Source: Escherichia coli (GTDB lineage Bacteria > Pseudomonadota > Gammaproteobacteria > Enterobacterales > Enterobacteriaceae). From it: a DNA stretch of 64,000 nt. How positions within the stretch are numbered: position 1 is the first letter of the stretch; the number at the start of each line of letters is the position of its first letter. Below are positions 49,901 to 64,000 of this stretch, in pieces. The stretch lies in assembly GCF_044324875.1 (NCBI RefSeq), contig NZ_CP172185.1. The stretch is one strand, 5' to 3'. The position numbers are program-made.

Positions 49901-52900
49901 AACGCCTTTGCCGGGAGTGCCCTGAGTCACGCGGCGCTGCCGTAACACGTTATCAGGCCACCGCGGTGGCCTGACTGATTTCAGAATGAAAGGAACTGAT
50001 TTATGGGATTGTTTACGACCCGCCAGTTACTCGGTTATACCGAACAAAAAGTGAAATTTCGTGCGCTGTTTCTGGAGCTGTTTTTCCGCCGTACGGTGAA
50101 TTTCCATACCGAAGAGGTGATGCTGGACAAAATTACCGGAAAAACGCCGGTGGCGGCCTATGTCTCCCCGGTTGTTGAAGGAAAAGTGCTGCGTCATCGT
50201 GGTGGTGAAACCCGCGTCTTGCGTCCGGGCTACGTCAAGCCGAAACACGAATTTAATTCCCGGCAGGCGGTTGAGCGCCTTCCTGGTGAAGATCCGGCTC
50301 AACTGAACGATCCGGCTTACCGCCGTCTGCGTATCATTACCGATAACCTCAAACAGGAAGAGCACGCGATTGTCCAGGTGGAAGAAATGCAGGCGGTAAA
50401 TGCCGTGCTGTATGGCAAATACACCATGGAAGGAGACCAGTTCGAGAAAATTGAGGTCGATTTTGGCAGATCGCCGGCGAATAACATTACGCAGGCCAGT
50501 GGTAAAAAATGGTCTGAGCACGATCGTGACACGTTCGATCCTGCGCATGATATTGACCTCTACTGCGACCAGGCCAGCGGCCTTGTGAATATTGCCATTA
50601 TGGACGGTACCGTCTGGCGTCTGCTGAATGGTTTTAAGCTGTTCCGCGAAAAACTGGATACCCGTCGCGGTTCAAATTCGCAACTCGAAACGGCAGTGAA
50701 AGACCTGGGGGCGGTGGTGTCTTTCAAAGGGTATTACGGTGATCTGGCCATTGTGGTGGCGAAAACGTCTTATGTGGCAGAGGACGGTACCGAAAAACGT
50801 TATCTGCCAGACGGCACGCTGGTCCTGGGGAATACTGCTGCAGATGGGATCCGTTGTTACGGTGCCATTCAGGATGCACAGGCGTTGTCTGAAGGAGTGG
50901 TGGCCTCTTCCCGTTATCCGAAACACTGGCTGACGGTGGGGGATCCCGGCCGTGAATTTACCATGACGCAGTCCGCGCCGCTGATGGTGTTGCCGGACCC
51001 GGATGAGTTTGTGGTGGTACAGGTGAAATAATCCGTGAGCGGGGGCGAAATGCCCCCGTGTCTTTTTTCACAGGGGGCTGATATGGCAACGAAAGAGCAA
51101 AATCTGAAACGGCTTGATGAACTGGCCCGGATTCTGGGGCGTGAGCCGGATATATCCGGGAGTGCCGCAGAGATAGCGCAGCGGGTGGCGGAATGGGAAG
51201 AGGAAGCAGAGGACAAAAACCAGGAGAGTGATGAGAACGAAAGGCATTTGATGACGTATAGCTACTCCACTGGCGGGGATGAAATGAGCACTGTTCGTGT
51301 ACTCAAAACCCTGCATGTGGCGGGAAAACATCCGCATGATGACAGTGATATGGAGATTGTTGTTACAGGTATGACTGTCAGAGTTGATCCAGTGAATGTT
51401 GCGGAACTTGTCCTGGAGGGGCTTGTTACAGATGAAAGTTATTAATATCAGGGATAACGGTTTTGATACAGCCATTGCCCGGGCTGATGAAACGATACGC
51501 GGGCATATGGGAACGTCAGCCACCATTACATCCGGTGAGCAGCCCGGCGCAGTAATACGTGGTGTTTTTGATGACCCTGAAAATATCAGCTATGCCGGAC
51601 AGGGCGTGCGCGTTGAAGGCTCCAGCCCGTCCCTGTTTGTCCGGACTGATGATGTGCGGCAACTGCGGCGTGGAGACACGCTGACCATCGGTGAGGAAAA
51701 CTTCTGGATAGACCGGGTTTCGCCGGATGATGGCGGAAGCTGTCATCTGTGGCTGGAGCGGGGAGCGCCGCCTGCCACGGCGCGCCGACGCTGAGGGAGT
51801 GAGTATGTATATCCGGGGTATGGAAAATGCCATTGAAAACCTGAGCCGTATTAACCGCAGTGCGGTACCCGGTGCGGCGGCGATGGCCTTAAACCGGCTG
51901 GGTTCTGCAGTCACTGCGCAATCGGCATCACAGGTATCCCGTGAGGTCAAAATCCCACGGAAATTTGTCCGTGAAAGGATGAAGCTAAAAAAGGCCACAC
52001 CAAAAAATCAGTCTGTCCGGATCTAGACTGGCCCCCTGAATCTCCAGACAACCAGTATCACTTAAATAAGTGATAGTCTTAATACTAGTTTTTAGACTAG
52101 TCATTGGAGAACAGATGATTGATGTCTTAGGGCCGGAGAAACGCAGACGGCGTACCACACAGGAAAAGATCGCAATTGTTCAGCAGAGCTTTGAACCGGG
52201 GATGACGGTCTCCCTCGTTGCCCGGCAACATGGTGTAGCAGCCAGCCAGTTATTTCTCTGGCGTAAGCAATACCAGGAAGGAAGTCTTACTGCTGTCGCC
52301 GCCGGAGAACAGGTTGTTCCTGCCTCTGAACTTGCTGCCGCCATGAAGCAGATTAAAGAACTCCAGCGCCTGCTCGGCAAGAAAACGATGGAAAATGAAC
52401 TCCTCAAAGAAGCCGTTGAATATGGACGGGCAAAAAAGTGGATAGCGCACGCGCCCTTATTGCCCGGGGATGGGGAGTAAGCTTAGTCAGCCGTTGTCTC
52501 CGGGTGTCGCGTGCGCAGTTGCACGTCATTCTCAGACGAACCGATGACTGGATGGATGGCCGCCGCAGTCGTCACACTGATGATACGGATGTGCTTCTCC
52601 GTATACACCATGTTATCGGAGAGCTGCCAACGTATGGTTATCGTCGGGTATGGGCGCTGCTTCGCAGACAGGCAGAACTTGATGGTATGCCTGCGATCAA
52701 TGCCAAACGTGTTTACCGGATCATGCGCCAGAATGCGCTGTTGCTTGAGCGAAAACCTGCTGTACCGCCATCGAAACGGGCACATACAGGCAGAGTGGCT
52801 GTGAAAGAAAGTAATCAGCGATGGTGCTCTGACGGGTTCGAGTTCCGCTGTGATAACGGAGAAAAACTGCGAGTCACGTTCGCGCTGGACTGCTGTGACC

Positions 52901-61900: not shown

Positions 61901-64000
61901 TCCGCAATAACGTCGGCAACTTTGGCGGTTTTCTTTCCATTCACAAACTTTCGCAGTAATTCCATGACAGAGACAGAATCAGCGATTCTGGCGCACGCCC
62001 GGCGATGTGCGCCAGCGGAGTCGTGCGGCTTCGTGGTGAGAGCGCCGGAGGGGGAAAGATATTTCCCCTGCGTGAATATCTCCGGTGAGCCGGAGGCGTA
62101 TTTCCGGATGTCGCCGGAGGACTGGCTGCAGGCAGAGATGCAGGGTGAGATTGTGGCACTGGTCCACAGTCACCCCGGTGGTCTGCCCTGGCTGAGTTAG
62201 GCCGACCGGCGGCTGCAGGTGCAGAGTGATTTGCCGTGGTGGCTGGTCTGCCGGGGGGCGATTCACAAGTTCCGCTGTGTGCCGCATCTCACCGGGCGGT
62301 GCTTTGAGCACGGGGTGACGGACTGTTACACGCTGTTCCGGGATGCTTACCATCTGGCGGGAATTGAGATGCCGGATTTTCATCGCGGGGATGACTGGTG
62401 GCGTAACGGTCAGAATCTCTATCTTGACAATATGGAGGCGACTGGTTTTTACCGTGTCGCACTGACAGAGGCGCAGCCCGGCGACGTGCTGCTGTGCTGT
62501 TTTGGTTCATCGGTGCCGAATCATGCCGCCATTTACTGCGGCGACGGCGGGCTGCTGCACCATATTCCTGAACAACTGAGCAAACGAGAGAGGTATACCG
62601 ACAAATGGCAGCGACGCACACACTCCCTCTGGCGTCACCGGGCATGGCACGCATCTGCCTTTACGGGGATTTGCAACGATTTGGCCGCCGCATCGACCTT
62701 CGTGTGAAAACGGGAGCCGAAGCCATCCGGGCGCTGGCCACGCAGCTCCCTGCGTTTCGTCAGAAACTGAGCGACGGCTGGTATCAGGTGCGTATTGCCG
62801 GGCGTGATACAGGCGAAAACGAATTATCAGCCCGTCTTAATGAACCGCTGGCAAATGGTGCCGTGATCCACATCGTGCCGCGTCTGGCGGGAGCCAAACG
62901 TGGTGGTGTGTTTCAGGCAGTGCTGGGCGCGGCGCTGATTGCGGTGGCATGGTGGAACCCTGCAGGCTGGCTGGGGGCTGCGGCTTTATCGGGCATGTAT
63001 GCGGCAGGGGCCAGTATGGTGCTCGGTGGTGTGGCGCAGATGCTGGCACCGAAAGCCAAAACCCCCCGCACACAGACAACGGATAACGGCAAACAGAACA
63101 CCTATTTTTCTTCACTGGATAACATGGTTGCCCAGGGGAATGCTCTGCCCGTTCTGTACGGTGAAATGCGCGTGGGGTCACGGGTAATTTCGCAGGAGAT
63201 CAGCACAGCGGATGAGGGGGATGGCGTCCGGGTTGTGGTGATTGGTCGCTGATGCAAAATGTTTTATGTGAAACCGCCTCCGGGCGGTTTTGTCGTTTAT
63301 GGAGCGTGAGGAATGGGTAAAGGCAGCAGTAAGGGGCATACCCCGCGCGAAGCGAAGGACAACCTGAAGTCCACGCAGTTGCTGAGTGTGATCGATGTCA
63401 TCAGCGAAGGGCCGATACAAGGACCGGTGGATGGATTAAAAAGCGTGCTGCTGAACGGTACGCCGGTGCTGGACAGTGAGGGGAATACCAACATCTCCGG
63501 TGTCACGGTGGTGTTCCGTGCCGGTGAGCAGGAGCAGACACCGCCGGAGGGGTTTGAATCCTCCGGCTCCGAGACGGTGCTGGGTACGGAAGTGAAGTAC
63601 GACACGCCGATTACCCGGACCATCACGTCGGCAAACATCGACCGTCTGCGCCTGACCTTCGGTGTGCAGGCACTGGTGGAAACCACCTCAAAGGGGGACC
63701 GGAATCCGTCGGAAGTCCGCCTGCTGGTTCAGATACAGCGTAACGGTCGCTGGTTAACGGAAAAAGACATCACCATTAAGGGCAAAACCACCTCGCAGTA
63801 TCTGGCCTCGGTGGTGGTGGGTAACCTGCCGCCGCGCCCGTTCAGTATCCGGATGCGCAGGATGACGCCGGACAGCACCACAGACCAGCTGCAGAACAAA
63901 ACGCTCTGGTCGTCATACACCGAAATCATCGATGTGAAACAGTGCTACCCGAACACGGCACTGGTCGGTGTGCAGGTGGATTCGGAGCAGTTCGGCAGCC

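What the first reader, a model, noticed from the sequence alone, without database searches (positions are those of the whole stretch)
51805..62707. Tail module inactivated three times while accessory genes remain intact
Z (IS2), H (IS21-family) and K (amber) are all disrupted, whereas the head genes, lysis genes, regulators and all accessory genes have intact frames. The prophage is therefore almost certainly unable to make infectious particles, and the retained morons (porin, TonB-like lipoprotein, SPFH pair, unknown cassette) may be kept for host benefit.
Basis: inference. Interest (0 to 1): 0.4.

Follow-up and report, generated by a model that had tools for sequence, protein, structure and literature searches.

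The report
Lambdoid prophage tail genes broken thrice
A lambda-like prophage sitting next to the E. coli mlrA gene has had three of its tail-building genes knocked out very recently, one after another (two jumping-gene insertions and one stop codon), which is an ordinary example of how prophages decay rather than a new kind of system.

Summary
IS2 (52024-53354, 5-bp duplication GGATC) splits the tail-completion gene Z. A 2,639-bp ISSso4-type IS21-family element (56876-59514, 7-bp duplication AGATGGC) splits the tape-measure gene H. A single G-to-T change (62198) turns codon 79 of K into TAG. With both IS elements removed in silico, the sequence aligns over 17,231 bp, without a gap, to an uninterrupted copy in another assembly. 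It differs at 4 bases, one of them the amber. Other draft genomes carry intermediates: Z::IS2 alone, and the H break with K intact. The order was therefore Z, then H, then K. The rest of the prophage in the window (23658-51800) is colinear with, and in two assemblies identical to, other copies, so nothing else is broken. On its own the prophage cannot build working tails. The idea that the accessory genes are kept by selection is not supported. The decay is too recent for their intactness to mean anything (about 0.7 probability by chance). Z::IS2 also occurs in a host whose flanking chromosome is 2% different, which hints at helper-assisted or leaky transfer. Ordinary; low interest.

The parts
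51805..52023 (+). 5' part of tail-completion gene Z (codons 1-73); the next triplet is TAG, the first three bases of IS2
   Evidence: PHROG phrog_27 'tail completion or Neck1 protein' matches residues 3-192 of the reconstructed protein. Pfam Minor_tail_Z is recorded on the identical intact 193-aa gene in L008.
52024..53354 (+). IS2 (IS3 family), 1,331 bp, same orientation as the late operon. insC is at 52115-52480 and insD at 52438-53343. The 5-bp target duplication GGATC lies at 52019-52023 and 53355-53359.
   Evidence: The same junction is present in L020, L026, L027, L028 and L012.
53360..53722 (+). 3' part of Z (codons 74-193)
   Evidence: reconstruction gives one 193-aa ORF; colinear with intact L008.
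53719..55729 (+). Intact U (53719-54114), V (54124-54861), G (54897-55301) and the T frame (55283-55729), with the G-T slippery heptamer GGGAAAG at 55277
   Evidence: TIGR01674 phage_lambda_G; phrog_37, phrog_41, phrog_39.
55710..56875 (+). 5' part of tape-measure gene H (codons 1-388 and part of 389)
   Evidence: phrog_24 tape measure matches residues 1-858 of the reconstructed 859-aa protein. An 859-aa H is called in L008-L013.
56876..59514 (+). ISSso4-type IS21-family element, 2,639 bp. istA is at 57108-58643 and istB at 58660-59415. The 7-bp target duplication AGATGGC lies at 56869-56875 and 59515-59521. Repeated terminal motifs (CGATCAnnnTTTGGCAT) lie at both ends.
59522..60935 (+). 3' part of H
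   Evidence: Contig L058 of another assembly starts at 59516, two bases past the IS end.
60932..61959 (+). Intact M (60932-61261) and L (61261-61959)
   Evidence: (TIGR01600 phage_tail_L).
61964..62707 (+). K (Prok-JAB + NlpC/P60 tail-tip assembly protein, 247 codons) with an in-frame amber at 62198-62200. This is codon 79, the Glu between Ser and Asp of HSHPGGLPWLS-E-AD.
   Evidence: all eight other copies that cover the site have G at 62198. Pfam domains are recorded on the intact copy.
62704..64000 (+). Intact I (62704-63252) and the first 230 codons of J (63310 to the window end, open frame)
23658..51794 (.). Rest of the prophage in the window, with no frame disrupted. It comprises: integrase next to mlrA, xis, the SPFH pair, an unknown cassette, CI/Cro-type regulators, helicase-primase replication genes, RusA, Q, a porin, tRNAs, holin-endolysin-Rz/Rz1, a TonB_C lipoprotein, terminase, portal, the S49 protease, D, E, FI and FII.

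Best explanation
This is a recently acquired, widely disseminated lambda-type prophage at the mlrA (yehV) site, caught early in mutational decay.

Three independent, sequential events hit its tail genes. First, IS2 transposed into Z. Then a plasmid-type ISSso4 element transposed into H. Finally, one G-to-T substitution made an amber codon in K.

Each event alone impairs or abolishes tail function. Without Z, particles are mostly unable to deliver DNA. Without H there is no tape measure and so no tube. The truncated K lacks the Asp of its metalloprotease motif and its whole NlpC/P60 domain.

Everything else needed for lysogeny, induction, replication, packaging, head assembly and lysis reads as intact. 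On induction the element should therefore excise, replicate, fill heads and lyse the cell, but release tailless, non-infectious heads unless tails or tail genes come from another lambdoid prophage.

Shown: the three lesions, their order, the intact sister copies, and the lack of other lesions in the window. Inferred: loss of function, the behaviour on induction, and that the clustering in the tail reflects chance and target size rather than selection.
For: Lesions and clean target duplications.

Family assignments.

Intact sister copy: the IS-free reconstruction aligns to L008 (GCA_022937845.1) over 17,231 bp with 0 gaps and 4 mismatches, including the amber base. L009-L013 also have a 193-aa Z, an 859-aa H and full-length K DNA.

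Order of events:
- L012 and L026 (GCA_958430965.1) and L020 (GCA_025411485.1) have the identical Z::IS2 junction but an uninterrupted H. L012 also has G at 62198.
- L058 (GCA_049006665.1) begins 2 nt past the ISSso4 end yet has G at 62198.
- The T at 62198 was found nowhere else.

Recency:
- Zero substitutions in prophage DNA against L022 (21.1 kb) and L025 (16.2 kb).
- The ISSso4 copy is 100.0% identical to plasmid copies.

No other lesion: gap-free alignments over 23133-44791 and 42788-52023.

No amber-suppressor tRNA: the only tRNAs found have anticodons CAT and TTT.

Function of Z and H: PMC11099176 and PMC10721106.
Against: - No experiment; loss of function is inferred from homology to lambda genes.
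- The right end of the prophage (the rest of J, the side fibres, attR) lies outside the window.
- The amber is a single base seen only in this sequence, so a sequencing error cannot be excluded.
- For L058 the H::ISSso4 insertion is inferred from a contig start, not from a read-through junction.
- Draft assemblies collapse IS copies, so each intermediate genotype is pieced together from separate contigs.
- K is not a virion component in lambda and its exact role is unsettled. I did not check in a paper the claim that a K-null makes no tails; it rests on classical lambda genetics recalled from my own knowledge.
Confidence: 0.85

Rival explanations
1. Domestication. Inactivation of the tail was favoured, or tolerated, because the host benefits from a locked-in prophage, and purifying selection keeps its accessory genes (porin, TonB_C lipoprotein, SPFH pair, unknown cassette) intact.
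For: The accessory genes are full length and match their families: the porin matches OmpF/OmpC-type models over residues 8-367, the lipoprotein has a TonB C-terminal domain, and the SPFH protein carries a Band_7 domain. The Z::IS2 allele persists in at least four other assemblies.
Against: - The whole early region has 0 substitutions against other copies, so there has been no time for neutral decay that selection could have prevented.
- The probability that three random hits all miss about 3.8 kb of accessory DNA is about 0.72.
- Head, packaging, lysis and replication genes, which are useless to the host, are equally intact.
- The tRNA cluster, itself accessory, looks degenerate in every copy. 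One tRNA scores only 31 bits and one tRNA-like stretch is not recognised at all.
Confidence: 0.1
2. The element is still transmissible. Z::IS2, and perhaps the later forms, are carried between hosts because Z-less particles retain some infectivity, or because co-resident lambdoid prophages supply Z, H, K or whole tails, or repair the genes by recombination.
For: - The identical Z::IS2 junction (L028) and an identical early region (0 differences in 11,319 bp) occur in GCA_025409305.1. That assembly's 10-kb chromosomal flank differs from the window's at 198 of 9,975 positions, with differences reaching to within about 300 bp of the integrase end.
- The H 3' end through J is 92-95% identical to tail modules of thousands of E. 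coli prophages, which gives substrate for recombination.
- Defective Sakai prophages are packaged and transferred (PMC2669165).
- gpZ-less lambda particles are 'mostly', not wholly, non-infectious.
Against: - It rests on one draft assembly in which the junction contig (571 bp) and the mlrA-linked contig are not physically joined.
- Independent IS2 insertion at a hot spot, or recombinational replacement of the flank, would give the same picture.
- There is no evidence of spread for the triple-lesion form, which was found only in this window.
Confidence: 0.3
3. Artefact. One or more lesions are assembly or sequencing errors in the source record.
For: The amber is a single base unique to this sequence. 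The triple combination was not found in any collection searched.
Against: - Both IS insertions have perfect target duplications of the length typical for their families.
- The IS2 junction is reproduced in five independent contigs.
- The ISSso4 break point is reproduced by a contig end in another assembly.
Confidence: 0.05

Closest known systems
Defective lambdoid prophages of E. coli O157:H7 Sakai (Sp1-Sp18), including the Stx1 prophage Sp15 at yehV/mlrA (Asadulghani et al. 2009, PMC2669165)
   Same: Lambda-type prophages in E. coli with genetic defects in morphogenesis genes, while cargo genes remain. This one uses the yehV/mlrA integration site. Many of the Sakai prophages are still inducible, and some are transferable with help from other prophages.
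   Different: Here the decay is much younger. There are only three lesions, all datable against intact and intermediate sister copies, and no stx or effector cargo is seen in the window. Nothing was tested experimentally.
Bacteriophage lambda tail genes Z, H and K, and the classical amber (sus) mutants in them
   Same: Same gene order Z-U-V-G-T-H-M-L-K-I-J, same Pfam families, and an intact G-T slippery site. The K lesion is literally an amber mutation.
   Different: The Z-U-V-G segment is a divergent allele. It has no megablast match in 5,426 complete E. coli genomes and is about 79% identical to the nearest phage record. H is 859 aa. The mutations arose naturally, and two of them are IS insertions.
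IS-driven gene inactivation by IS2 (IS3 family) and ISSso4 (IS21 family) in E. coli and Shigella
   Same: Canonical element lengths, termini, transposase genes and target duplications (5 bp for IS2; 4-7 bp across the 24 ISSso4 copies examined, counting the window's).
   Different: Nothing mechanistically different. The only oddity is that the 7 bases following the ISSso4 target duplication equal the element's first 7 bases, which produces a 14-nt flanking direct repeat.

Membership tests
IS2 (IS3 family) | About 1.33-kb element with imperfect terminal inverted repeats and a 5-bp target duplication | tested here: met
   1,331 bp; 33-nt arms, 79% complementary; GGATC on both sides.
IS2 (IS3 family) | Two overlapping ORFs (TnpA/InsC and TnpB/InsD) that match the IS2 models | tested here: met
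   NF006928 scores 276 bits (cut-off 229) over 121/121 positions. NF006918 scores 713 bits (cut-off 597) over 301/301 positions. An A6G motif lies in the overlap.
IS21 family, ISSso4 type | istA transposase followed by the istB helper ATPase | tested here: met
   NF033546 scores 285 bits (cut-off 160). NF038214 scores 258 bits (cut-off 200).
IS21 family, ISSso4 type | 5'-TG...CA-3' termini with multiple repeated terminal motifs, and a short target duplication | tested here: met
   Termini TGCAAAATGG...ACGCA. Five direct copies of a 19-nt motif at the left end, with inverted copies at the right end. 7-bp duplication; the range is 4-7 bp across the 24 copies examined, counting the window's.
IS21 family, ISSso4 type | Near-identity to elements annotated as ISSso4 | tested here: met
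   100.0% identity over 2,639 bp to many plasmid copies whose istB is annotated 'IS21-like element ISSso4 family'. I could not consult ISfinder's reference entry.
Lambda-type (Lambdavirus-like) tail module | Gene order Z-U-V-G-T-H-M-L-K-I-J with the matching protein families | tested here: met
   Pfam families Minor_tail_Z, Phage_tail_U, Phage_TTP_12, Phage_TAC_2, Phage_tail_T, TMP_2 with Tape_meas_lam_C, Phage_min_tail, Phage_tail_L, Prok-JAB with NLPC_P60, and Lambda_tail_I are recorded on the near-identical sister copy, which differs at only four bases.
Lambda-type (Lambdavirus-like) tail module | Programmed -1 frameshift site joining G and T | tested here: met
   GGGAAAG at 55277, near the end of G, with the T frame open from 55283. 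Frameshifting itself was not tested.
Defective (cryptic) prophage | Disruption of at least one gene essential for virion production | tested here: met
   Z, H and K are disrupted relative to intact sister copies.
Defective (cryptic) prophage | Failure to yield infectious particles on induction | not testable with these tools
   Needs induction, electron microscopy and plaque or lysogenisation assays.
Domesticated prophage with selected cargo | Accessory genes conserved beyond the neutral expectation while phage functions decay | tested here: not met
   Zero substitutions anywhere in the early half. All non-tail phage genes are as intact as the cargo. The chance that the cargo escapes three hits is about 0.72.

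The most novel reading that the evidence does not exclude
A prophage already lacking its tail-completion gene (Z::IS2) nevertheless moved by integrase-mediated lysogeny into E. coli lineages whose neighbouring chromosome differs by about 2%. If so, in nature a 'dead' tail gene does not stop a lambdoid prophage from spreading, whether through leaky Z-less particles or through tails borrowed from co-resident prophages. The later H and K hits would then mark the real end of mobility in this lineage.
Probability: 0.3. Interest if true: 0.35.

Novelty: new member of a known kind. Interest (0 to 1): 0.12.

Why it matters
It matters little beyond annotation. This locus should be recorded as a defective lambdoid prophage carrying three dated lesions, not as a functional phage.

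Its modest value is as a clean natural time series of prophage decay. The intact form, the Z::IS2 form, an assembly with the H break but K still intact, and the triple-lesion form all exist in public assemblies with almost no other sequence change. That series could be used to measure how fast, and in what order, prophages lose functions. It could also test whether a Z-defective prophage still spreads.

Tried and rejected
1. Amber suppression by a phage-borne tRNA. ARAGORN and Rfam find only tRNAs with anticodons CAT and TTT at 39412-39565 and none with CUA. Rejected.

2. The idea that ISSso4 chose this site because it resembles its own end. The 7 nt after the duplication equal the first 7 nt of the IS. 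A first sample of 14 other copies gave P = 0.0035. That sample had been ranked by a query that included the window's flanks, so it was biased. An unbiased sample of nine plasmid insertions gave 20 of 63 matching bases against 15.75 expected, P = 0.14. Rejected as unsupported; the 14-nt repeat stays an unexplained coincidence.

3. An initial reading of a 14-bp, then a 3-bp, target duplication for the IS21 element. Comparison with other copies corrected this to 7 bp.

4. K called as a 199-aa protein in L009, L012 and L013 looked like a second, independent K lesion. The DNA is open from the upstream ATG, so it is only a start-site choice by the gene caller.

5. The 78-aa K fragments on record are genes cut by contig ends, not amber alleles.

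6. Finding the source genome or identical lesions:
- Exact junction and amber patterns gave no hit in GTDB species representatives or IMG/VR.
- Exact look-ups of the H-IS fusion ORF and of the K C-terminal ORF found nothing.
- No complete E. coli genome covers 80% or more of 51000-64000.

7. Two look-ups were wasted on wrong ORF limits.

There are 0-4 substitutions in total.
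Full report
**What is in the window.** Positions 1-23622 are ordinary E. coli chromosome (mglA to mlrA). The best match in 5,426 complete genomes is 98.4% identical. From 23658 to the end of the window lies a lambda-type prophage integrated beside mlrA (yehV). Mapping the annotated proteins of a related prophage (L001, strain LH50-c) onto the window gives the following content:
- integrase and excisionase;
- an SPFH pair and a block of unknown genes;
- a CI-type repressor (HTH plus S24 peptidase) with divergent Cro-type genes;
- helicase/primase replication genes, RusA and Q;
- a reverse-strand porin and a tRNA cluster;
- holin, endolysin and Rz/Rz1;
- a small lipoprotein with a TonB C-terminal domain;
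- terminase, W, portal, the S49 protease, D, E, FI and FII.

The finding's coordinates run exactly from the Z start codon (51805) to the K stop codon (62707).

**The three lesions.**

*Z.* The frame is cut after 52023 by a 1,331-bp IS2 (52024-53354). The element has the expected ends and imperfect inverted repeats. It carries two intact ORFs that exceed NCBIfam's curated cut-offs for IS2 TnpA and TnpB. A 5-bp duplication, GGATC, flanks it.

*H.* The frame is cut after 56875 by a 2,639-bp IS21-family element (56876-59514) with intact istA and istB. Its ends were not obvious, because a 14-nt direct repeat flanks it. Comparison with 23 other full-length copies, all 2,639 bp, fixes the termini as TGCAAAATGG...ACGCA and the duplication here as 7 bp, AGATGGC. 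Across the 24 copies, counting the window's, duplications range from 4 to 7 bp. The copy is 100.0% identical to ISSso4-annotated copies on E. coli and E. fergusonii plasmids.

*K.* There is an in-frame TAG at 62198-62200. The closest allele in complete genomes differs by exactly that one base, so the change is GAG (Glu79) to TAG. The stop falls between the Ser and Asp of the HSHPGGLPWLS-E-AD metalloprotease motif. It lies upstream of the whole NlpC/P60 domain.

U, V, G, T, M, L, I and the first 230 codons of J are open. The G-T slippery heptamer is present.

**Intact and intermediate sister copies.** An exact-sequence look-up of the major tail protein V found the same tail module, uninterrupted, in several draft assemblies. 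I removed IS2 and the IS21 element from the window, each with one copy of its duplication. The result aligns to L008 (GCA_022937845.1) over 17,231 bp with no gaps and four mismatches, one of which is the amber base. This single result verifies all three lesions at once. It also shows that nothing else in 42788-64000 is altered by insertion or deletion.

Further look-ups using ORFs that exist only in the disrupted forms recovered intermediates:
- The identical Z::IS2 junction occurs in contigs of GCA_958430965.1, GCA_025411485.1, GCA_025414085.1 and GCA_025409305.1.
- In two of these (GCA_958430965.1 and GCA_025411485.1) H runs straight through the IS21 site. In the one that covers K, position 62198 is G.
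- A contig of GCA_049006665.1 starts two bases past the IS21 right end and still has G at 62198.

The order is therefore Z::IS2 first, H::ISSso4 second and the K amber last. The amber was seen nowhere else.

**The rest of the prophage.** Positions 23133-44791 align without a single gap to four other assemblies. In two of them every substitution lies in the host mlrA flank and none in the prophage. ORF lengths agree with the genes called there. Two caveats apply. The prophage continues beyond the window. And the tRNA cluster looks degenerate in all copies, with one tRNA scoring 31 bits and a third tRNA-like stretch that neither tool recognises.

**What it means.** Particles lacking gpZ look normal but are mostly non-infectious (PMC11099176). 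gpH is the tape measure around which the tail tube is built, and it takes part in DNA delivery (PMC10721106). K is a non-virion assembly factor; its requirement for tail-tip assembly is classical lambda genetics that I cite from memory.

The prophage by itself should not make working tails. It should still be able to excise, replicate, package and lyse. This is inference and was not tested here.

The lesions are very young. There are 0-4 substitutions against sister copies over tens of kilobases, and the IS21 copy is identical to plasmid copies.

The accessory genes are intact because almost nothing has yet happened to this prophage, and the head, lysis and replication genes are just as intact. 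From the coordinates, three random hits would miss the roughly 3.8 kb of accessory DNA about 72% of the time.

Clustering in the tail has a nominal probability of about 0.01 for the in-window tail fraction (8.2 of 36.4 kb). It weakens to roughly 0.04 or more once the unseen tail genes are allowed for, and further after allowing for the post-hoc choice of module. H is also one of the largest targets.

**An observation that cuts against 'dead end'.** The prophage itself is identical or nearly so (0-1 differences in 11.3 kb) in hosts whose adjacent 10 kb of chromosome differs from the window's by 1.6-2.6%. Only GCA_029450875.1 shares the window's flank (1 difference in 9,968 bp). This was therefore a recently and widely spreading phage.

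One of the divergent-flank assemblies, GCA_025409305.1 (1.98% different), also contains the Z::IS2 junction. Taken at face value, the Z-defective form has entered more than one host background. That fits the partial infectivity of Z-less particles. It also fits the helper and recombination effects shown for defective Sakai prophages (PMC2669165).

The evidence is thin. It is one draft genome with unlinked contigs, and an IS2 hot spot or replacement of the flank by recombination would look the same. I give this reading about 0.3.

**Things that led nowhere.**
- No suppressor tRNA was found.
- The apparent preference of ISSso4 for targets resembling its own end disappeared in an unbiased sample.
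- The 199-aa K calls and the 78-aa K fragments in other assemblies are gene-calling and contig-end effects.
- The source genome and the triple-lesion form were not found in any collection.

**Verdict.** The thing is an ordinary, recently and stepwise inactivated lambdoid prophage: a new member of a well-known kind. The functional inference (no tails in cis) is well founded but untested. The adaptive inference about the accessory genes is not supported. Interest is low. The only mildly interesting angle is that public assemblies happen to preserve the whole decay series, together with a hint that the first defective stage still moved between hosts.

Noticed in passing
window 56869-56882 and 59515-59528: The ISSso4 element is flanked by a 14-nt direct repeat, AGATGGCTGCAAAA. 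It consists of the 7-bp target duplication plus 7 target bases that happen to equal the first 7 bases of the IS. An unbiased sample of nine other insertions showed no such tendency (P = 0.14), so it remains an unexplained coincidence. It would make precise excision by repeat-mediated deletion somewhat easier.
   Followed up: yes
window 39412-39650: The prophage tRNA cluster looks degenerate compared with the Ile/Arg/Thr trio of the related prophage L001. The first tRNA (CAT) is good (68 bits). The second has anticodon TTT instead of TCT and scores only 31 bits. A third tRNA-like stretch is called by neither ARAGORN nor Rfam. The other assemblies that cover this stretch are identical here or differ at a single base.
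   Followed up: partly
window 13551-23622 versus 23658-34941; loci L048-L057: The prophage is identical or nearly so (0-1 differences in 11.3 kb) in assemblies whose adjacent chromosome differs from the window's by 1.6-2.6%. The change from divergent to identical sequence happens inside the 3' part of mlrA. Only GCA_029450875.1 shares the window's flank (1 difference in 9,968 bp). This indicates recent spread of one phage into several E. coli lineages.
   Followed up: partly
window 51805-55300 (Z-U-V-G alleles): The reconstructed Z gene has no megablast match in 5,426 complete E. coli genomes. The U-to-H segment is only about 79% identical to the nearest phage record (PhiR46_1). Yet the exact V protein is listed in 90 blocks of the draft-assembly collection. 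This tail-module variant is therefore missing from finished genomes.
   Followed up: partly
window 42541-42867: The small lipoprotein with a TonB C-terminal domain (TIGR01352, Pfam TonB_C) falls in PHROG phrog_1267, which is labelled 'Rz-like spanin'. The label looks like a mis-annotation, because a separate Rz/Rz1 pair lies at 41441-41908.
   Followed up: no
window 40410-40787 (- strand): This 125-aa ORF between holin and endolysin matches only positions 57-158 of the 159-position family phrog_1853, so it may be N-terminally shortened. The same 125-aa gene is called in a sister copy (L022), so it is not a lesion specific to this genome.
   Followed up: partly
window 13533-13613 (+ strand): Rfam Peptidase-S11 RNA motif (73 bits), in the interval just upstream of pbpG in the aligned E. 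coli annotation. It is host chromosome and unrelated to the finding.
   Followed up: no
locus L032 (E. coli strain 4238), both ends: In that genome an ISSso4 copy sits inside the left inverted repeat of an IS2 (flank GACTGG|CCCCCTGAATCTCCAGACAA). This is an IS-in-IS insertion.
   Followed up: no
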